From a virus: a stretch of 64,000 nt of DNA. Both the position numbers and the translations under genes were made by a program. Below the pieces are notes generated by a model that did no database searches, had not been told where the DNA came from, and saw nothing but the letters and a program-made list of their open reading frames with translations. The stretch is taken from the IMG/VR virus record IMGVR_UViG_3300031965_000019, positions 2,490 to 66,489 of that record; one strand, given 5' to 3'. Below, one piece after another: positions 46,551 through 57,965 of this stretch; position 1 is the stretch's first letter; every line of letters begins with the position of its first letter.

Positions 46551-46955
46551 TTACAAGTTACTGACCTCTTCCGGATCCAATTCACCTAATCGTTCGGCCT
46601 GTGAACGGGAGATTTCGTCGCCAGGCGAGTTCTCTTCCAGCGGCTTAAACGAAATCGAGTTCGGGTGAATTTCGTAAACCCGGCCGGTAGCGACGTCCTC
46701 GACCATTGCCGTGTTGACACGCCTGATCGGCCCTCCCTTGCCACCGCCCACAGTCTTACTGCCGAAGAGGTGGAAGATGCCTGGCTTCCACTCGGCGTTC
46801 TCATTCAACCGATACCAACAAGCCCGTTGCTTGCTGGTGAGCCGATCGAACACGTCGACCATTTCGGTAAAACTTCTCATTGACTCCGTGAAATCGCTGA
46901 GTGCCGCAATCGATTCCTCATTCAACGCAAGTGTGTCTGACATGCTGTCCTCCAT
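46551..46955 (-). CDS. Hypothetical protein (134 aa)
   Basis: Typical composition, in operon. Confidence 0.55.
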   Translation of the reverse strand: MEDSMSDTLALNEESIAALSDFTESMRSFTEMVDVFDRLTSKQRACWYRLNENAEWKPGIFHLFGSKTVGGGKGGPIRRVNTAMVEDVATGRVYEIHPNSISFKPLEENSPGDEISRSQAERLGELDPEEVSNL

Positions 46956-47019
46956 TCTTATGGGTAAAACTGGGGCCGTGAGTTTTCCATTGCACTTCCG
47001 CCCCGCTGGTGGCTACCAA

Positions 47020-47364
47020 TCACTCGATTGGCTCTCCCGAGATCAGGTCCACTCCGCAACTCGGCCTCGCCCGCTCCACTGTCTCGCGTCGCGGACCATT
47101 CAATCGCTGTGGCTGGAGCGTGTGGTCGCGAACCACGGTGAGCGAGTCTTTGGCCATCGCGGCCGCAAAGCGAACTCGCCGCGATACGTCGAAGTCGGCC
47201 AACAATTCGTCACATAGGTCCAGGGCTCGCTCGAGGGCGGTCTCGCCGACGTTGTACAGTTGCGTCCGGCCAGGCAACAGGTTGTGGTGGAAATGGGGCA
47301 TAACAAACCTAGGTACCGATGTAATCTTGGCTGTCGAATAGTTCTTGCAGCATCCGTGCTTCAC
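47020..47364 (-). CDS. Hypothetical protein (114 aa)
   Basis: GGAAAGAGAAG before GTG start. Confidence 0.45.
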   Translation of the reverse strand: MKHGCCKNYSTAKITSVPRFVMPHFHHNLLPGRTQLYNVGETALERALDLCDELLADFDVSRRVRFAAAMAKDSLTVVRDHTLQPQRLNGPRRETVERARPSCGVDLISGEPIE

Positions 47365-47674
47365 TTCTCTTTCCTGTTGTCTGTTTCTTCGGCCAACTGT
47401 CGGGAATTCTCATATTCAGATTCGCTCTTCCATTGAGCTTCATGTAATCCACACAGTCGGAGAACATCTGCAATCCTTCACTGCGCAGAAATTCGAGCGG
47501 TAAGAACAACCAACCAGCGGGGCAATTGGTGATGTTCTTTTCTTCCGAAACCATCATGCCGAGATGGCCTCCCGTGTTGAGCATGCAGCCGCCCTGTTCT
47601 AGCGTATTTTTGAAATAAGACCGCCGCGAGATCGGGCAGGAGAATCCTTCGGGATATTTCATGGGTCGAAGCAT
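47309..47674 (-). CDS. Hypothetical protein
   Basis: GGAG SD before MLRPMKYPEG. Confidence 0.5.
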   Translation of the reverse strand: MLRPMKYPEGFSCPISRRSYFKNTLEQGGCMLNTGGHLGMMVSEEKNITNCPAGWLFLPLEFLRSEGLQMFSDCVDYMKLNGRANLNMRIPDSWPKKQTTGKRSEARMLQELFDSQDYIGT

Positions 47675-47676
47675 GG

Positions 47677-48525
47677 TCAAACTCCCGCCTCGGGGGCCCG
47701 CGGATCGTGCTGATTGCATTTCGCCCAAAACTTCCTCTCGTCCGCGCGCATCAACAGCAGGTGAGCAATGACGTCGTCAGTCGGGACCATGCTGCCGGCG
47801 TAAGTGCCACGATAGAATCCGATCGGGTGCATACACAGCGCGGCAAGGATTTTCGTATTGTCATGGCCAAGCATTGGGGCAATGGCGAGCGTCGGCCGGC
47901 ACTTGCGGAAGAAGTAGATGATCTTTGATCGCTTGCTGGTTTCCAGGAACGTGCCTGTCAGCAGGTAATAGCGGAAGGCACGGGAAGTGACCAAACCCTT
48001 GAGGCTGGCAAGTGCAGTGAACTCTGCCCTGACGCTCCAGGCTTGGGACGCACAGAGGGTATCTAGCACTATACTCGCCCGCTGCGACGACGTGCGATTC
48101 GGGATGGCCATGCACTTTACTTGACCATCCTCGCGATAGACGATGATCTGCCGCCCACGCTCGCGGTCGATCCACTGATTGACGATCTCGCAGTTATCGT
48201 GATCGACAGGATCGTCTTTTTTGGAAAGCGATGCGCCGTTGAGAGTGGCGTAGAGCGGGTGCCTCGGCTCGATTTCGAGACTCACGTCAACCATCGGCAT
48301 GGGGTAGCCGGCCCAATTTCCGCCCTCGCCGGCCAGTGTGACGATCCTCTGTCGAATGTTTTCCCAACCGTCGTCGAGGCCCTCCAGTAGCGTGTGCTGA
48401 GACTCCAAGTCGCCACACTTCTCGATGCGCCGAGCCAATCGCGCCAGCGACTTGAGTTCTCGCTCCCGCTTTTTGTTGGCCAGCTTTTTTTTGGTGGCAT
48501 TACCTGCCATTTCAACCTCCAGCAC
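47677..48525 (-). CDS. Hypothetical phage protein (~280 aa)
   Basis: Long ORF with conserved-looking LCMHPIGFY…D..IAHLL C-terminus. Confidence 0.65.
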   Translation of the reverse strand: MLEVEMAGNATKKKLANKKRERELKSLARLARRIEKCGDLESQHTLLEGLDDGWENIRQRIVTLAGEGGNWAGYPMPMVDVSLEIEPRHPLYATLNGASLSKKDDPVDHDNCEIVNQWIDRERGRQIIVYREDGQVKCMAIPNRTSSQRASIVLDTLCASQAWSVRAEFTALASLKGLVTSRAFRYYLLTGTFLETSKRSKIIYFFRKCRPTLAIAPMLGHDNTKILAALCMHPIGFYRGTYAGSMVPTDDVIAHLLLMRADERKFWAKCNQHDPRAPEAGV

Positions 48526-48907
48526 TTGGCGCGACGCCGGTCACGGACGTCGTCTTGGCGGATACTCTGCGACCATTGCCGCGTCCACGCTTTGATGGAG
48601 TAGGCGGCTTGGTGCCTGGCTTCGTTTCCTCATCCAAAGGAATCGGCGGCGCTGTCGGACCATCTGCAATCACGTACTCGCATGTCTTAGCGTCGAACCG
48701 TTTCACGCGGACGAATTCGCCGTCGACCTTGGCGAACAGCATGTAGCCCCGTTTGAGCATGTCTTTCACGACGCGCTCCGCCCGGGCCACTTCTAGCGGG
48801 TCTTTGCTGTCGAACGAAAAAACCATGTCGCCGGCTCCGCAGTTGAGGACCGACACGTTGGCGGGAATCGGTATCAGTGTCATGGGTTGTCCAGTGGTAA
48901 AACGCAA
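48512..48907 (-). CDS. Hypothetical protein (131 aa)
   Basis: LNCGAGD…APSAGG; upstream of the 280-aa gene. Confidence 0.6.
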   Translation of the reverse strand: MRFTTGQPMTLIPIPANVSVLNCGAGDMVFSFDSKDPLEVARAERVVKDMLKRGYMLFAKVDGEFVRVKRFDAKTCEYVIADGPTAPPIPLDEETKPGTKPPTPSKRGRGNGRRVSAKTTSVTGVAPSAGG

Positions 48908-48934
48908 AAGTAGGACTGTGTCATAAAGTCATAA

Positions 48935-49004
48935 AATGCTGTGCTGTGCATGGCAATGCGTTGCGACGCGCTGCTCAGCGATGCGTAGCACCGCCTCGCT
49001 TAGC
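48935..49004 (-). ncRNA. 5-nt periodic repeat unit F (14 pentamers), putative guide RNA
   Basis: GCTAA GCGAG GCGGT GCTAC GCATC GCTGA GCAGC GCGTC GCAAC GCATT GCCAT GCACA GCACA GCATT TT. Confidence 0.7.
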
Positions 49005-49011
49005 AGGATTA

Positions 49012-49731
49012 TCAAACAATCCACGCTGTAAACTTTCCAAACGGGCCGCCAGACGATTTCTTATTCCTGCCGCGCGGCTTGATGTAAGCCCTGAACGCGC
49101 CGAGACCAACACTCATTCCAGCGAATCGTAAAATGTCCTCGAAATAGTTTGAGATGACCCCCATGCAGTCCGTGTTACTCGTGTCGACGATCAACTTAAA
49201 ATTCGCCGCCCAAGTGTCGAAGCGAGGTCGGATTGCCACGATGGCCCCGCCCGTGTTGCCGTTGACCGCCCGCCGCATGTCAATCGCGTAGTCTTTTTCC
49301 GTGAGCGGTTTTCCCGTCTTGGGGTCGACCAACTTCGTGAGCGTCGTTTCATAGTCGAAGGTAAGACCGGCCTGGAGAATGGAAGCGGCGGAAGGGGCAT
49401 AGCGCCCCGACCCGACTTTCAGCTTCATAAGTTCGGCGGCGTCCATGATGCAGGAGAACAAGGCGACGTTTGGAAATGCACAGTGGCCGTCCCCGTCGAT
49501 GTAGGATTGTCGCCTGGCTACCGCCGCCGGCGCATTGTCTTGTTGCTTCTTGGTCCGTGTCGCGCCGCTTTCTTCCGGCTGCATATCGGCGGGATTCGCG
49601 CAAAGCAGCGGCGTGATTCCTTCCACATGGATTGTGAGCCGGTCCAGATTGAACAGCGTGGACTTCGCCGGCATGGCGGCTCCATTCTTTTCGATACGAT
49701 TGGTGGGCTTCGTTTTCGTTTTCGTGGCCAC
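49012..49731 (-). CDS. Stand-alone RAMP / Cas7-like protein (239 aa)
   Basis: IHVEGITPLL first strand, AFPNVALFSCIMDAA, IRPRFDTW, Gly-rich C-terminal AGMSVGLGAFR…GPFGKF; fold is inferred. Confidence 0.65.
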   Translation of the reverse strand: MATKTKTKPTNRIEKNGAAMPAKSTLFNLDRLTIHVEGITPLLCANPADMQPEESGATRTKKQQDNAPAAVARRQSYIDGDGHCAFPNVALFSCIMDAAELMKLKVGSGRYAPSAASILQAGLTFDYETTLTKLVDPKTGKPLTEKDYAIDMRRAVNGNTGGAIVAIRPRFDTWAANFKLIVDTSNTDCMGVISNYFEDILRFAGMSVGLGAFRAYIKPRGRNKKSSGGPFGKFTAWIV

Positions 49732-49753
49732 TTGGTTGTCTCCTATTAGTTAA

Positions 49754-49818
49754 AGGGCTGTGCTGTGCTTGGCCGAGCATCGCCATGCGAGGCCCGGTTT
49801 CGCGCAGCATTGCCTCGC
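49754..49818 (-). ncRNA. 5-nt periodic repeat unit E (13 pentamers)
   Basis: GCGAG GCAAT GCTGC GCGAA ACCGG GCCTC GCATG GCGAT GCTCG GCCAA GCACA GCACA GCCCT TT. Confidence 0.7.
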
Positions 49819-49842
49819 TCCTAAACGATGAATCGTAAAATC

Positions 49843-49892
49843 TGTGCTGTGGTTTGCGATGCGCCGCAATGCACCACACTGCTGGGCAAAGC
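49843..49892 (-). ncRNA. 5-nt periodic repeat unit D (10 pentamers)
   Basis: GCTTT GCCCA GCAGT GTGGT GCATT GCGGC GCATC GCAAA CCACA GCACA GATTTT. Confidence 0.65.
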
Positions 49893-49918
49893 AACGAAAC
49901 ATTTGTTCGATTAAATCC

Positions 49919-49978
49919 TGTGCTGTGCTGCGCTGCGCCACGCGTCGCGCTGCAAAGCGCTGCCACGCAGTGCCACGC
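49919..49978 (-). ncRNA. 5-nt periodic repeat unit C (12 pentamers)
   Basis: GCGTG GCACT GCGTG GCAGC GCTTT GCAGC GCGAC GCGTG GCGCA GCGCA GCACA GCACA GGATTT. Confidence 0.7.
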
Positions 49979-49989
49979 ACTGAAACATT

Positions 49990-50655
49990 TCACGCCACCA
50001 ACAGCACCTCCAAGGCGTGGTGTAATTTCTGGAGCCGGGCGAACAGCTTTTCGTCATCCGGCAGGGACTTCGATTCCAACAGCTTCAATAGCACGTTGAC
50101 GTGGTAGGAAGCGGTCTGCCCGCCGACGTGCTCATAAACATCCTCTTGTATCTTGGTGAGTTTCGTGCCGGCAAGGTGGGCCATCGGACGGCGGAGAACT
50201 ACGTCACCGCGGGAGCCTTTGGCGGAGCGACTGCCAACGATATCCGTCAGCTTCTCCCGCGTGACGTGAAGCGCCGTCGCCAATTTCTCCCGTGAGATGC
50301 GGAACTTCTTTCCGAGTGTCGCACAGCGGGCAATGTCCGCCGTCGTGAGCCTTCGGCCGTGGGTCGCGTTGCGGGCAATAGCGTCCAGCACCATTTCCGC
50401 TTCGTTCTTGAAATCGACCAGCATGACTTCCATCTCGGCATCATCGCCAGATACTTTGATATTGGCTCGACGCCGGTGGAAACCGTCAGTGAGCCGCAAG
50501 CTCTTGACATCGGCGACGCAGGGAGGCAGCGCCGCCCCAGCCCGAATTGATTCCGCCAGATCGTAGACGTGGCCATCGAACACGCAGTTGCGCGGGTAGA
50601 TGGAAAAATCTTCGATCAGTTCCGAGGCTTTCAGGACTTTAGTTTTGTGAGTCAT
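49990..50655 (-). CDS. ParB/Srx-like N-terminal domain protein (221 aa)
   Basis: SIYPR…LAESIRAG..LPP…LTDGFHRRRA; GAAAGGA SD before ATG 50655. Confidence 0.8.
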   Translation of the reverse strand: MTHKTKVLKASELIEDFSIYPRNCVFDGHVYDLAESIRAGAALPPCVADVKSLRLTDGFHRRRANIKVSGDDAEMEVMLVDFKNEAEMVLDAIARNATHGRRLTTADIARCATLGKKFRISREKLATALHVTREKLTDIVGSRSAKGSRGDVVLRRPMAHLAGTKLTKIQEDVYEHVGGQTASYHVNVLLKLLESKSLPDDEKLFARLQKLHHALEVLLVA

Positions 50656-50682
50656 GCGAATCCTTTCTGGTTGACAAAAATC

Positions 50683-50742
50683 TGTGCTTTGCTTTGCGCG
50701 GCGATGCATAGCCTGGCCCAGGCTCGCGGCGCCGTGCATTAC
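50683..50742 (-). ncRNA. 5-nt periodic repeat unit B (12 pentamers)
   Basis: GTAAT GCACG GCGCC GCGAG CCTGG GCCAG GCTAT GCATC GCCGC GCAAA GCAAA GCACA GATTTTT. Confidence 0.65.
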
Positions 50743-50775
50743 GGGGTCGCTACTTGATGAATTGGTTCATAAAAC

Positions 50776-50850
50776 TGTGCTGTGCTTTGCGTAACAACGC
50801 TTCGCCGCGCCCGACTAAGCTGGGCCCCGCGTCGCCGAGCCGCGCCTCGC
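50776..50850 (-). ncRNA. 5-nt periodic repeat unit A (15 pentamers)
   Basis: GCGAG GCGCG GCTCG GCGAC GCGGG GCCCA GCTTA GTCGG GCGCG GCGAA GCGTT GTTAC GCAAA GCACA GCACA GTTTT. Confidence 0.7.
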
Positions 50851-50858
50851 GGCGACAA

Positions 50859-52277
50859 CTAATAAATCTCCGCTCTCAGTTCACCGTCCGCCGCTTCCGC
50901 GCTGAGGATGATGATTTGCTTTTCATGCGCGAACTCAATAATCTCTTGCCGATTGGTTGGATCGAGGCTCTCGAAGTCCCCTTGGTCGACCACAACCACG
51001 CCGCCAGGGCCGACGCGCGAAGCCACCAGCCGGACCCCCAGCTTTACACGCTCGCCATGCGACAGCTCGCCGATCGGCTCGGCGCCGCGATCTGTGTTTA
51101 CACGCAGCAGGCCCTTCTCGACGAACAGACCGATGTCCAGTCCGGCCACGGCGTCGGAGAGTACGCTGTCGATACCCAGCGCGGCGGAGCGGAAGAGGTC
51201 TGCGATTTCGTCCGCGGCCTTCCCCTGCTGGAGTTCCTTGTCGGCCAGCGCCTTCGCCTTGTCGTACTCGCGGGCTTTCACGCCAGTTTCGACGGCGTCG
51301 CGGGCTGTATCGACACGCTGCGATGCCGCCAGAACTTCGCTGATCGTGATGGGCTGCGGTAGTTCAGTGGCGAGGATCTTCTCGAAACCATCGCGCATGG
51401 CGACAAGCCGTTTGTCGGCAAGCACAGCCGCCTCGGCCAATTTGTACTCGGTTGCCGCCTCGGACTGGATTCGCTGGGCTTCCGCCAGCGCCGCTTCCGC
51501 CCTATTCAGTGACTCGACTGCCGCAACCATACGGGAGTCCACTACTGCCGAATCTGCGGCTGGCAACTTCGCCAGCCTCGCCTCGGCTTCCTCGCGTTTG
51601 ACGGCTTGGTCCTGTTGGTCACGGTCCCGCTGTTCAATCGAAGATTGTTCGCGGATCGCCGCCTCCAACTGCGCCTGCAGCTTGGCCGAGTCCCGCTCTT
51701 GCGTGGGCCCAAACTCGGTGGCGTTGGCCATGAGGCCGGTCGACTTTTGATGGTGGGCCACGGCGCGGGCCGAATTGTCTCTAGCCCCTTGCTCAAGTTT
51801 GCGTTTCACGCGGCCAGCGTACTCGACCAGATCCTCGCAGGGCTCCACGGCCAGCGACTCGAAAACCGGCGTGGGAATCAGCCGCGGCGTGAACAGCGCC
51901 GCATCGCCCGTGACGCCCCGGATCGCCAGCAGACTCTTGATCCGTTTCGCGTCGGCCGAGGCCGGATCGTCGATGCCAGGGTCGATGAACGCGGCCAGGT
52001 CCAGCTTGCCCTCGATGCTCTGGACATCCAGGTGTCCGCTCTTCGTGATCCTAGGCCCGATGTTGATTCTCGCCCCCCAGCCCTCGGCCGTCCCCTTATC
52101 GGCCCCGTCATGGACGGTCGGACGCTCGTCTCCGCCCAATAGGCGCTTGACCGTGTCGAGCCCGTGAGACTTGCCAGTACCATTCGCTCCGCGGAGCAAA
52201 ATGAGCCCGCCCCCCTCGGGAGTCTGAAACTCGATCGACTTGACCGCTCCGGAATTTTCAATGGTTACAGTCGCCAT
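50859..52277 (-). CDS. SMC/Rad50-like ABC ATPase (472 aa)
   Basis: Walker A GANGTGKS, long coiled coil, LSHGE signature, VVVDQ Walker B. Confidence 0.85.
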   Translation of the reverse strand: MATVTIENSGAVKSIEFQTPEGGGLILLRGANGTGKSHGLDTVKRLLGGDERPTVHDGADKGTAEGWGARINIGPRITKSGHLDVQSIEGKLDLAAFIDPGIDDPASADAKRIKSLLAIRGVTGDAALFTPRLIPTPVFESLAVEPCEDLVEYAGRVKRKLEQGARDNSARAVAHHQKSTGLMANATEFGPTQERDSAKLQAQLEAAIREQSSIEQRDRDQQDQAVKREEAEARLAKLPAADSAVVDSRMVAAVESLNRAEAALAEAQRIQSEAATEYKLAEAAVLADKRLVAMRDGFEKILATELPQPITISEVLAASQRVDTARDAVETGVKAREYDKAKALADKELQQGKAADEIADLFRSAALGIDSVLSDAVAGLDIGLFVEKGLLRVNTDRGAEPIGELSHGERVKLGVRLVASRVGPGGVVVVDQGDFESLDPTNRQEIIEFAHEKQIIILSAEAADGELRAEIY

Positions 52278-56338: not shown

Positions 56339-56407
56339 CACGGAAAACCCTGGAGCGGGCGTAAACGATTCTCGGCAGGACCAAGAACCGAGTCGGGGCC
56401 TCACGGC
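56339..56407. repeat. 69-bp direct repeat, copy 1
   Basis: One mismatch to 56748..56816. Confidence 0.9.
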
Positions 56408-56747: not shown

Positions 56748-56816
56748 CACGGAAAACCCTGGAGCGGGCGTAAACGATTCTCGGCAGGACCAGGAACCGA
56801 GTCGGGGCCTCACGGC
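56748..56816. repeat. 69-bp direct repeat, copy 2
   Basis: One mismatch to 56339..56407. Confidence 0.9.
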
Positions 56817-57143: not shown

Positions 57144-57965
57144 ATGATTGCCGTCGCCGATTCTTTTGTCGCCCATGCCGAGCGATACATGCTGGCTAAT
57201 CCTTGCTGTCGAAAGCACCGGGAAAACATACGGGGTCGCATCCGTCGCTTCGTGGCGTGGTTCCCGGGCTCCCCGAAATCGCTGGCGCCCGAAGACCTGA
57301 ATGGCTTTCTGGCTTCCCTGGAGCGCGCCGGCCTCAGCGCTCACACTGTCAACGGCTACCGCGCGACAATCATGGCTGTCTGGCGGTTCGTGCTGGGAGA
57401 AAGAATTCGTTGGAAGATAAGGCGGGTACGTCCGCCGCAGAGAGAAGTGAAAGCCTGGAGCGTCGGCCAAGTGCGACAACTGCTGAGCGTTGCCGTGACG
57501 TTGCGTGGCCGGCTGCCCAACGGCGTGCAGCGGCGGCTGTTTTTCCTAACGGCGATCCACGCCGGGTTTTCCACGGGACAGAGATACGGGGATCTGGCCA
57601 GACTGCCAGTGGCGGCGATTCGAGCCGATAGGACGGCGACCTTCGTTCAATCCAAGACGGGCCGTCGCGTCACTGTTCGTTTCAGCGATAAGGCGGTGCG
57701 CTGCATTCGAGCTCACGGGCAGGCGACGGTAATTCCCAATCCGCACACGCAGCAGTGGTTTTGCGTGGCGTTCGGCGATTTGGTGGAACGAGCCGGGATC
57801 AGGCGCGGGAGCTTCAGGTGGCTCCGCCGCAGCGCGGGCTCGTATGTCGAGCGGGCGACTGGGCGAGGGCCGGAACTGCTGGGGAACACCAGAGCCGTGT
57901 TCGAGGCGAATTATCAGGCGGAGTCAATCACGAGGCGAGCACCGCCGGAGCCGCCGCGGCTGTAG
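57144..57965 (+). CDS. int: Tyrosine recombinase / integrase (273 aa, divergent)
   Basis: SAM-like N-terminus, TGQRYGDL, QSKTG, FRWLRR, LLGN, Tyr in ANY. Confidence 0.8.
   Translation: MIAVADSFVAHAERYMLANPCCRKHRENIRGRIRRFVAWFPGSPKSLAPEDLNGFLASLERAGLSAHTVNGYRATIMAVWRFVLGERIRWKIRRVRPPQREVKAWSVGQVRQLLSVAVTLRGRLPNGVQRRLFFLTAIHAGFSTGQRYGDLARLPVAAIRADRTATFVQSKTGRRVTVRFSDKAVRCIRAHGQATVIPNPHTQQWFCVAFGDLVERAGIRRGSFRWLRRSAGSYVERATGRGPELLGNTRAVFEANYQAESITRRAPPEPPRL

What the first reader, a model, noticed from the sequence alone, without database searches (positions are those of the whole stretch)
50776..50897. Unit A decodes, as a gapped NN-x code, to a near-copy of the adjacent ATPase gene end
Seen: unit A dinucleotides are GA GC TC GA GG CC TT CG GC GA GT TA AA. 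The last 13 codons of the neighbouring SMC-like gene (50897 to 50859) have first-two bases GA GC GC GA GG GA CT AG GC GA AT TA TA. That is 19/26 identical, with 7/13 dinucleotides exact. Decoded as codons the unit spells [DE]AS[DE]GP[LF]RA[DE]VY versus the phage's own EAADGELRAEIY; several mismatches are synonymous (Leu, Arg) or conservative (V/I). Inference: the unit guides recognition of the homologous gene in a related competing phage, or of the cassette-free allele at the insertion site. Skipping every third base would tolerate wobble changes, and the phage's own copy is mismatched enough to avoid self-targeting. A match this good could occur once by chance somewhere in 64 kb; adjacency and protein-level conservation are what make it notable.
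Basis: partly seen in the sequence, partly recalled or inferred. Interest (0 to 1): 0.88.

Follow-up and report, generated by a model that had tools for sequence, protein, structure and literature searches.

The report
VIPR guide RNA aimed at rival's ATPase

Summary
Unit A (window 50851-50775, minus strand) is 15 pentamers of the form xGC-NN. Its NN pairs match the phage's own ATPase end at 19/26. Read as triplets, this is the single best hit in the 67.8-kb genome.

The decisive result is a related viral contig (L001). It lacks the whole 1.9-kb cassette, and its ATPase ends in EASDGPLRAEVY, exactly the peptide unit A spells. The NN match there is 23/24 with a one-base skip, against 17-18/24 for other skips and a maximum of 18/24 in 200 shuffled guides.

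The cassette is a VIPR system (bioRxiv 10.64898/2026.04.26.720920 and companions). It has:
- a 239-aa Cas7-like Vipr protein;
- a ParB_N-like accessory gene;
- six vrRNAs with the published alternative YNNNG repeat.

The published rule (NN pairs, wobble base skipped, natural targets at 80% or more, no self hit at 80% or more) fits: 96% on the rival, 75% on self.

This scan has already found VIPR systems in at least 53 other genomes.

Two things appear to be new. First, the guide targets the empty-site allele directly beside its own cassette. Second, there is a hint that the relaxed x base tracks the target's wobble base.

Verdict: new member of a known kind.

The parts
50792..50851 (-). Guide part of vrRNA A: 12 xGC-NN pentamers whose NN pairs spell codon positions 1-2 of EASDGPLRAEVY.
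   Evidence: Parse. NN match of 23/24 to L001:5408-5443.
50775..50791 (-). Constant 3' repeats of vrRNA A (CGCAA AGCAC AGCAC AG). They are shared by all six units and do not match the target.
   Evidence: The NN pairs AA AC AC against TG GT TT in L001 give 0/6.
50742..50774 (-). T-rich 3' tail or linker after unit A, containing a small hairpin. The ends of the RNA are not known.
   Evidence: Similar linkers follow every unit here and in sister loci.
50862..50897 (-). Own near-target: the last 12 sense codons of the phage's ATPase (EAADGELRAEIY). NN match to guide A is 18/24.
50859..52277 (-). SMC/Rad50-like ATPase gene (472 aa) in the RecE-RecT recombination module.
   Evidence: The C-terminal motif TAEA[AST]DGELRAE[VI] is conserved in homologues.
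50682..50738 (-). vrRNA B (11 pentamers). Target unknown.
   Evidence: No perfect hit.
49990..50655 (-). vap: accessory gene (221 aa) with a ParB N-terminal-like domain and the motif DGFHRRR. It sits next to vipr in every sister locus.
   Evidence: phrog_1033 E 8e-7. TIGR00180 E 3e-4, below its cut-off. Protein atlas score 0.98 to ParB_N clusters. Synteny, alignment.
49918..49979 (-). vrRNA C (12 pentamers). Its best own-genome hit is in frame on the integrase motif VTVRFS.
49842..49893 (-). vrRNA D (10 pentamers). Target unknown.
49758..49819 (-). vrRNA E (12 pentamers). Target unknown.
   Evidence: No perfect hit.
49012..49731 (-). vipr: 239-aa stand-alone Cas7-like RAMP.
   Evidence: The family profile hits PDB 36pp_D 'SUSP1 Vipr protein' at E 0.0018. 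The AF2 model has pLDDT 74. The best Foldseek hits are all Csm3/Cas7/gRAMP, E 5e-5 and probability 1.0. 26 homologues, each one fetched sitting beside pentamer arrays.
48939..49005 (-). vrRNA F (13 pentamers), the last unit of the cassette.
   Evidence: No perfect hit.
48860..48936 (-). Island of homology with the cassette-free relative. It resumes right after unit F (L001:5565-5640) and marks the far edge of the cassette.
   Evidence: The contig of run X1 shows a joint L001:5384|5565 with 1981 nt in between.

Best explanation
Unit A is the gene for a VIPR guide RNA (vrRNA).

The 1.9-kb cassette at window 48939-50851 (minus strand) holds a Cas7-like Vipr protein (239 aa), a ParB_N-like accessory gene (vap) and six vrRNAs. 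Each vrRNA has 10-15 pentamers of the form xGC-NN, ending in constant GCACA repeats and a T-rich tail.

By analogy with the SUSP1 system solved by cryo-EM, one Vipr protomer binds each pentamer. It buries the constant bases and presents the NN pair. The filament then pairs with double-stranded DNA, two bases read and one skipped, and blocks transcription.

Guide A reads the last 12 codons (codon positions 1-2) of the SMC-like ATPase gene as they occur in a related, mosaic, temperate phage lineage (L001 type) that lacks the cassette at this very site. The carrier's own allele differs at 6 of the 24 read positions.

Shown here: the anatomy, the family membership by sequence and fold, the one-base-skip match, and the existence of the empty-site target allele in several metagenomes.

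Inferred, not shown: transcription of the unit, RNP formation, silencing of the rival's early operon, and immunity of the own allele.
For: - Repeat logo over 254 pentamers from 31 units in 5 loci: x is any base, G 93%, C 96%, then NN variable. This is the published alternative 'YNNNG' repeat. Units have 7-16 repeats, against a published range of 9-16.
- Vipr protein: a profile hit to the SUSP1 Vipr protein in PDB 36pp, with RP(R/I)F(D/R)xW aligned. This includes the Arg that corresponds to SUSP1 R138, a residue essential for silencing. The Foldseek hits with E <= 0.001 listed are all type III/VII CRISPR RAMP effector proteins (Csm3/Cas7, gRAMP, Cas7-11).
- All five sister contigs fetched carry vipr, the same vap and the same arrays, inside different phage backbones.
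- Target: L001's ATPase ends in EASDGPLRAEVY. NN match is 23/24 with skip 1, against 17/17/18 for skips 0/2/3. The shuffled-guide maximum is 18/24. The NN-x pattern finds only this contig in the viral and metagenome collections.
- The skipped base is the codon wobble position, and the guide hits a motif conserved across the ATPase family. Both are as published for natural VIPR targets.
- L001's contig has no vipr and no pentamer array.
- The empty-site allele, including the target, occurs at 99% identity or more in contigs of two further soil or sediment runs (X4, X5). Run X3, the likely source of L001, holds all of its sampled words.
- The two phages share an 89%-identical integrase region (95% at protein level), so they plausibly compete for the same host.
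Against: - There is no expression data. No RNA run holds the locus, and no sigma-70-like promoter or intrinsic terminator was found.
- No pseudoknotted tail like that of SUSP1 was detected, and the unit folds are no better than shuffles.
- The match to L001 is not perfect (Leu is CT, not TT), and no perfect target was found in any collection.
- Guides B, C, E and F have no perfect hit.
- The sequence link to SUSP1 Vipr is weak (E 0.0018). The Vipr structures are not in the Foldseek library, so fold identity with Vipr itself, as opposed to Cas7, could not be measured.
- The mismatch tolerance of this clade is unknown, so 'self is spared at 75%' rests on a bioinformatic threshold.
Confidence: 0.85

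Rival explanations
1. Chance resemblance. A GC-rich periodic repeat happens to resemble the GC-rich end of the neighbouring gene.
For: On NN identity alone the own-genome score (18/24) is reached somewhere in the genome by 9% of shuffled guides.
Against: The hit is the genome-wide best by three measures and lies directly adjacent. No shuffle out of 300 reaches 9 amino-acid matches. The independent contig L001 gives 23/24 NN and 12/12 amino acids at the orthologous site.
Confidence: 0.01
2. Self-regulation. vrRNA A binds the phage's own ATPase 3' end despite six mismatches and tunes read-through transcription into the cassette or the downstream early genes. The match to L001 would then only reflect shared ancestry of the two alleles.
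For: The site lies immediately upstream of the cassette on the same strand. The mismatch tolerance of this clade is untested.
Against: The guide fits the foreign allele far better (96% against 75%), including the lineage-specific Ser and Pro codons. In SUSP1, perturbing NN pairing abolished silencing, and no natural guide had a self hit at 80% or more. Published solo guides likewise score lower on self than on rivals.
Confidence: 0.05
3. A protein-binding RNA array for attenuation or translational control, in the manner of TRAP (11 triplets spaced 5 nt apart), or a period-5 DNA site for the ParB-like protein. On this reading no guide function exists.
For: Period-5 arrays of 10-15 units lie in intergenic regions and end in T-runs. 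A ParB-like gene lies between them.
Against: This does not explain why the variable bases spell a rival's codons at 23/24. It does not explain the obligatory pairing with a Cas7-like RAMP in all sister loci. No terminator hairpins were found.
Confidence: 0.03
4. A fossil guide. The unit is a genuine vrRNA, but the cassette or this guide is no longer functional, or its target lineage is not a present-day competitor.
For: There is one NN mismatch to the only known target, and no perfect target was found anywhere. There is no expression evidence.
Against: The G and C scaffold positions are intact in 13 of 15 repeats, and the other two carry GT, which is allowed as Y. The vipr and vap reading frames are intact and highly conserved. 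The target allele is present in several recent soil and sediment metagenomes.
Confidence: 0.06

Closest known systems
VIPR systems (Vipr + vap + vrRNA): type II of Escherichia phage SUSP1 and the P. fulva prophage. Sources: bioRxiv 10.64898/2026.04.26.720920 (also PMC13142463), 10.64898/2026.04.26.720927 and 10.64898/2026.10.15.759431.
   Same: - A small stand-alone RAMP protein, one accessory gene, and several vrRNAs flanking the genes.
- Pentamer repeats with a constant scaffold and variable NN pairs.
- A constant 3' end.
- A target read with a one-base skip that falls on the codon wobble position.
- The target is a conserved coding motif of a competing phage.
- Self identity lies below 80%.
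   Different: - The repeat is xGC-NN (the published minor 'YNNNG' form), with the first G relaxed to any base.
- Vipr is 239 aa rather than about 200 aa, and is barely alignable to SUSP1 Vipr (E 0.0018).
- The vap gene is ParB_N-like.
- The 3' handle is 2-3 constant repeats plus a short T-rich linker, with no detectable pseudoknot.
- The source is a soil phage.
- The one identified target is the allele of the gene directly beside the cassette, in relatives with an empty site.
Class 1 CRISPR-Cas backbone (Cas7/Csm3 filaments on crRNA)
   Same: The RAMP fold with a glycine-rich loop and thumb. One protomer binds per RNA period, with periodic interruption of the guide-target duplex.
   Different: - The period is 5 nt with 2 bases read, not 6 nt with 5 read.
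- The guide information is interleaved with scaffold bases, so it cannot be a simple captured spacer.
- There are no CRISPR repeats, no cas1/cas2 and no other cas genes in the 67.8-kb genome region examined.
Free-standing homing endonuclease genes of T-even phages (intronless homing, or marker exclusion; from general knowledge)
   Same: A selfish cassette sits between genes. It recognises a site in the flanking gene of relatives that lack the cassette. The carrier's own flanking allele carries protective substitutions.
   Different: Recognition here is RNA-guided, and the known VIPR output is transcriptional silencing, not cleavage. No nuclease activity has been shown for the ParB_N-like vap. 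No conversion of empty sites has been shown.
TRAP-type ring proteins binding 5-nt-spaced triplets in RNA leaders
   Same: Around 11 short motifs at 5-nt spacing in a non-coding RNA.
   Different: In TRAP targets the motif is constant and the spacers carry no meaning. Here the variable bases carry a target address, and the partner protein is a RAMP.

Membership tests
VIPR system | A Vipr protein: a small stand-alone RAMP (RRM core, glycine-rich loop, thumb). | tested here: met
   The profile of 26 family members hits 'SUSP1 Vipr protein' (PDB 36pp_D) at E 0.0018, with the RPxFxxW block aligned. The AF2 model (pLDDT 74) has best Foldseek hits that are all Csm3/Cas7/gRAMP, at probability 1.0. Invariant glycine-rich segments are present.
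VIPR system | vrRNAs: tandem pentamers (9-16) with a conserved GGY or related scaffold (YNNGG, NNNGG, YNNNG, NNNNG) alternating with hypervariable NN. | tested here: met
   Logo: x is any base, G 0.93, C 0.96, then NN variable, i.e. YNNNG. Units have 7-16 repeats. No two units share their NN.
VIPR system | An invariable, structured 3' tail (a pseudoknot in the SUSP1 clade). | tested here: inconclusive
   The constant GCAAA/GCACA/GCACA-G end and the T-rich linker are conserved within each locus. No fold is better than shuffles, and no conserved pseudoknot was found.
VIPR system | An adjacent accessory gene (vap) predicted to interact with DNA. | tested here: met
   A 221-225-aa ParB_N-like protein lies next to vipr in the window and in L005, L006, L007, L009 and L010.
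VIPR system | A natural target recognised under the one-base-skip rule at 80% NN or more, with the skipped base at the codon wobble position. | tested here: met
   Guide A against the L001 ATPase end: 23/24 (96%) with skip 1, in frame. Skips 0/2/3 give 17/17/18 of 24. The shuffled-guide maximum is 18/24.
VIPR system | No self-target at 80% NN or more. | tested here: inconclusive
   Guide A scores 75% on self (met). Guides B and C each have one own-genome site at exactly 16/20 (80%). The B site is out of frame and looks like chance. The C site is in frame in the integrase gene.
VIPR system | vrRNAs are expressed, co-purify with Vipr, and silence transcription at the target. | not testable with these tools
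   Only DNA metagenome runs hold the locus.
VIPR system | Mostly encoded by phages or proviruses. | tested here: met
   The 67.8-kb viral record carries RecE/RecT, an integrase and structural genes. The sister loci are also phage-like.
CRISPR-Cas (class 1) | A CRISPR array of identical direct repeats separated by contiguous captured spacers, together with adaptation genes. | tested here: not met
   The only repeat family in the window near these genes is the pentamer units. The variable part is punctuated by GC every 5 nt. Rfam finds nothing. The Pfam, PHROG and PADLOC scans of the neighbouring genes show no other cas protein.
Free-standing homing endonuclease cassette | A nuclease that cleaves the empty-site allele and drives copying of the cassette. 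| not tested
   The vap protein has only a weak ParB_N-like signature. No evidence of cleavage or conversion exists.

The most novel reading that the evidence does not exclude
The cassette may behave as a selfish, linkage-protected element, an RNA-guided counterpart of marker exclusion by homing endonucleases.

Its first guide is aimed at the empty-site allele lying 8 nt from its own insertion point. In mixed infections, genomes without the cassette are therefore hit at that locus. Resistance (the diverged last 20-40 codons of the ATPase) can only be inherited together with the cassette.

In addition, in this YNNNG clade the relaxed x base is not neutral. It tracks the target's wobble base. 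This would mean either a three-base reading unit or a fossil of how new guides are copied from targets, a question the preprints leave open.
Probability: 0.2. Interest if true: 0.72.

Novelty: new member of a known kind. Interest (0 to 1): 0.45.

Why it matters
- It gives an independent natural guide-target pair for a VIPR clade that has not been characterised: soil phages, a YNNNG repeat and a ParB_N-like accessory gene. It shows that the one-base-skip, wobble-blind code holds outside the enterobacterial and Pseudomonas systems studied so far.
- A guide aimed at the empty-site allele of the flanking gene suggests that VIPR cassettes may secure their own inheritance, not only fight satellites and prophages.
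- The variable x position offers a direct way to ask whether some Vipr proteins read three bases, or how guides originate.
- For the scan itself, it shows that a reader without tools can recover the VIPR code from sequence alone.

Tried and rejected
- **TRAP-like or ParB-site reading of the period-5 arrays.** This was my first idea. I dropped it once the RAMP partner and the 23/24 target match were found.
- **Rfam.** Nothing between 46 and 54 kb at E <= 1.
- **Sigma-70 promoters and intrinsic terminators.** None on the relevant strand. Unit folds are no better than shuffles, except unit E at z = -2.3.
- **Phage GenBank collection.** No DNA match to the cassette. No vipr relative in viral contigs by pattern scan.
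- **Perfect-match NN-x scans.** Guides B, C, E and F in viral contigs, F in genome contigs, and one 13-repeat guide of L007: no hits. These scans need every NN to match, so they are weak evidence of absence. Guide D was not scanned because it has too few informative bases.
- **Guides B-F against L001's contig and all fetched loci.** Nothing above the shuffled-guide null.
- **Generality of 'the guide hits its own flank'.** In sister loci L005, L006, L007 and L009, no guide has a significant near-match within 400 nt of the cassette. The test is weak because it needs the own allele to resemble the target.
- **'Own allele specially recoded to escape'.** Own versus L001 over the 12 target codons is 19/24, at the 34th percentile of 12-codon windows. 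The own residues A and E are the family consensus, whereas S and P are specific to L001. Not supported.
- **Co-occurrence of both phages in the window's source sample.** The L001 k-mers found in run X1 come from the window phage itself. Not shown.
- **Spurious hits.** The PDB hits of vap to GFP constructs are treated as spurious.
Full report
**1. What is there**

Between 48.9 and 50.9 kb the window carries six non-coding units, and nowhere else. This also holds for the whole 67.8-kb viral record. All six lie on the minus strand, co-directional with the surrounding early genes.

The gene order is: a RecE/YqaJ-HNH exonuclease, RecT, a 472-aa SMC-like ATPase, units A and B, a 221-aa ParB-like gene, units C, D and E, a 239-aa gene, and unit F.

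Each unit is a run of 10-15 pentamers. It ends in the constant GCAAA/GCACA/GCACA-G, followed by a T-rich stretch. Over 254 pentamers from 31 such units in five loci, the frame is x-G-C-N-N. G is present in 93%, C in 96% (T in most of the rest), and x and NN are variable.

**2. The observation**

- On NN identity alone the match to the phage's own ATPase end is not exceptional. It scores 18/24, and 9% of base-shuffled guides do as well somewhere in the genome.
- Taking the x after each NN as a third base, the unit reads EASDGPLRAEVYKTT. The adjacent gene end (EAADGELRAEIY, then stop) is then the single best hit on both strands of the genome by nucleotides, by codon positions 1-2 and by amino acids.
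- No shuffle of triplet order out of 300 reaches 9 amino-acid matches anywhere.

**3. The decisive result**

The only close relative of the ATPase in the collections is on viral contig IMGVR_UViG_3300033407_000029, fetched as L001 (75% aa identity in the tblastn hit, 77% in the pairwise alignment). Its gene ends in SAEASDGPLRAEVY followed by a stop. That is a 12/12 match to the decoded unit, 31/36 at nucleotide level and 23/24 at the NN positions.

L001 lacks the cassette. About 120 nt after its stop codon, the sequence that in the window follows unit F resumes. A contig of the window's source run joins L001:5384 to 5565 with 1981 other letters in between. L001's 49-kb contig has no vipr relative and no period-5 array.

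With 0, 1, 2 or 3 skipped bases, the best NN score in that contig is 17, 23, 17 and 18 of 24. 200 shuffled guides never exceed 18/24.

The same empty-site allele, target included, is present at 99% identity or more in contigs of two other soil or sediment runs, X4 and X5. Run X3, the likely source of L001, holds all of its sampled words.

**4. What it is**

The 239-aa protein has 26 metagenomic homologues (54-74% identity, no Pfam family). In every contig fetched, it sits beside a 221-225-aa homologue of the ParB-like gene. Both genes are flanked by arrays of the same units, up to 11 per locus, inside otherwise different phage backbones.

A profile of the family hits one solved structure, 'SUSP1 Vipr protein' (PDB 36pp, E 0.0018). 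The aligned RPxFxxW block includes the arginine equivalent to SUSP1 R138. The AlphaFold model (pLDDT 74) finds Csm3/Cas7/gRAMP chains as its best matches.

[quoted passage not shown] Their findings:

- A small ancestral RAMP (Vipr), an accessory gene (vap) and vrRNAs of 9-16 GGY/NN pentamers with a constant 3' tail.
- The NN pairs base-pair with double-stranded DNA while every third target base is skipped, and that skipped base is usually the codon wobble position.
- The complex silences transcription of competing phages and satellites, without a PAM and on either strand.
- Alternative scaffolds, including YNNNG, are reported. xGC-NN is that form.

The accessory gene here is ParB_N-like, on weak but concordant evidence: PHROG 8e-7, TIGR00180 3e-4 and protein-atlas score 0.98. 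The preprints describe vaps as DNA-binding proteins or enzymes. I could not see their figures, so I cannot assign a type.

**5. How it most likely works**

- Shown: the anatomy, the family membership, and the one-base-skip match to a rival's allele.
- Inferred from the SUSP1 work: Vipr protomers polymerise on the transcript of unit A, one per pentamer, and present 12 NN pairs. The filament opens the rival's DNA at the last 36 bp of its ATPase gene into a gapped R-loop triplex and blocks transcription into the downstream early genes.

The three constant 3' repeats do not match the target (0/6) and act as a handle.

The guide addresses a motif, TAEA[AST]DGELRAE[VI], that is conserved across the ATPase family. 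This mirrors the published preference for constrained coding sites. The Ser and Pro positions make it specific for the L001 lineage.

The carrier's own allele matches at 75%, below the 80% used in the preprints, which report no self hits at that level.

The two phages are mosaic relatives. About 11 kb aligns at 88% identity, including the integrase region (95% at protein level). They are therefore plausible competitors for one host.

**6. What is not explained by the literature I could read**

(a) *Adjacency.* The one identified target lies 8 nt from the cassette, in relatives with an empty site.
- Nucleotide identity between the two ATPase genes is about 0.9 for codons -100 to -40. It falls to 0.57-0.67 in the last 20 codons, as if the gene end travelled with the cassette.
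- This is the logic of marker exclusion by free-standing homing endonucleases.
- The words 'homing' and 'insertion site' do not occur in two of the three preprints (the discovery paper and the competition paper). The structural preprint was not searched for them.
- It rests on one locus. A weak test in sister loci found nothing.

(b) *The x base.* In unit A, x equals the target's wobble base in 8/12 cases (chance 0.275, P = 0.005).
- Across 31 guides, NN plus x is more codon-like than after permuting x in the sense orientation (p = 0.013). It is not so when the better of two orientations is taken (p = 0.40), and stop codons are not depleted.
- This is suggestive only.

**7. Comparison and verdict**

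This is a VIPR system, and unit A is one of its vrRNAs.

The kind has been in print since April 2026. This scan has already reported it in at least 53 other genomes, though not with a guide aimed at the neighbour gene's empty-site allele.

I rate it a new member of a known kind. Interest is moderate, and it is raised by the clean natural guide-target pair, the adjacency and the x-base hint.

Noticed in passing
window 57669-57698 (+), inside the tyrosine-integrase gene 57144-57965: Guide C (49979-49918, minus) has its best own-genome hit here: 16/20 NN, in frame, on the conserved integrase motif SKTG..VTVRFS. Arg is CGT in the gene but AG in the guide. 3.5% of shuffled guides score as well somewhere in the genome. 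None of 19 integrase homologues carries the exact peptide the guide spells. It may target the integrase of a relative, as published VIPRs target satellite recombinases.
   Followed up: partly
x position of all xGC-NN repeats (window units and L005, L006, L007, L009): The scaffold base that is a fixed G in SUSP1 is variable here. It matches the target's wobble base 8/12 times in guide A (P = 0.005). It is GC-richer than the NN bases in the GC-richer loci, and it is weakly codon-like in the sense orientation (p = 0.013, but 0.40 for the best orientation).
   Followed up: partly
window 50859-50980 versus L001:5325-5446: Nucleotide identity between the two ATPase genes drops from about 0.9 to about 0.6 over the last 20-40 codons next to the cassette. 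This looks like a recombination breakpoint inside the gene end.
   Followed up: partly
run X4, contig laid on L001:5382-5637: A sediment-metagenome contig has the empty site and the target allele. It then continues into a gene like the window's 123-aa ORF (48512-48883), not into L001's downstream sequence. This is a third mosaic arrangement of the junction.
   Followed up: no
L007:2394-4638 (GCA_005804565.1 contig SXGT01430915.1): A sister VIPR locus has 11 vrRNAs in three arrays around vipr and vap, each followed by a nearly identical linker of about 25 nt. Several guides contain internal duplicated modules.
   Followed up: no
L006:6613-6657 versus L006:16246: A short guide (7 informative NN) matches its own contig at 13/14, in frame in a 123-aa gene 10 kb downstream. 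Given the guide's length, this is either chance or a self-target.
   Followed up: no
window 56339-56407 and 56748-56816: Two 69-bp direct repeats, 99% identical and 409 bp apart, lie upstream of the integrase region.
   Followed up: no
window 46560-48860: About 2.3 kb of genes downstream of the cassette (for example the 282-aa ORF 47677-48525, with no family hit) are also absent from L001. Its homology resumes at window 46559, so the region is a hotspot of mosaic exchange.
   Followed up: no
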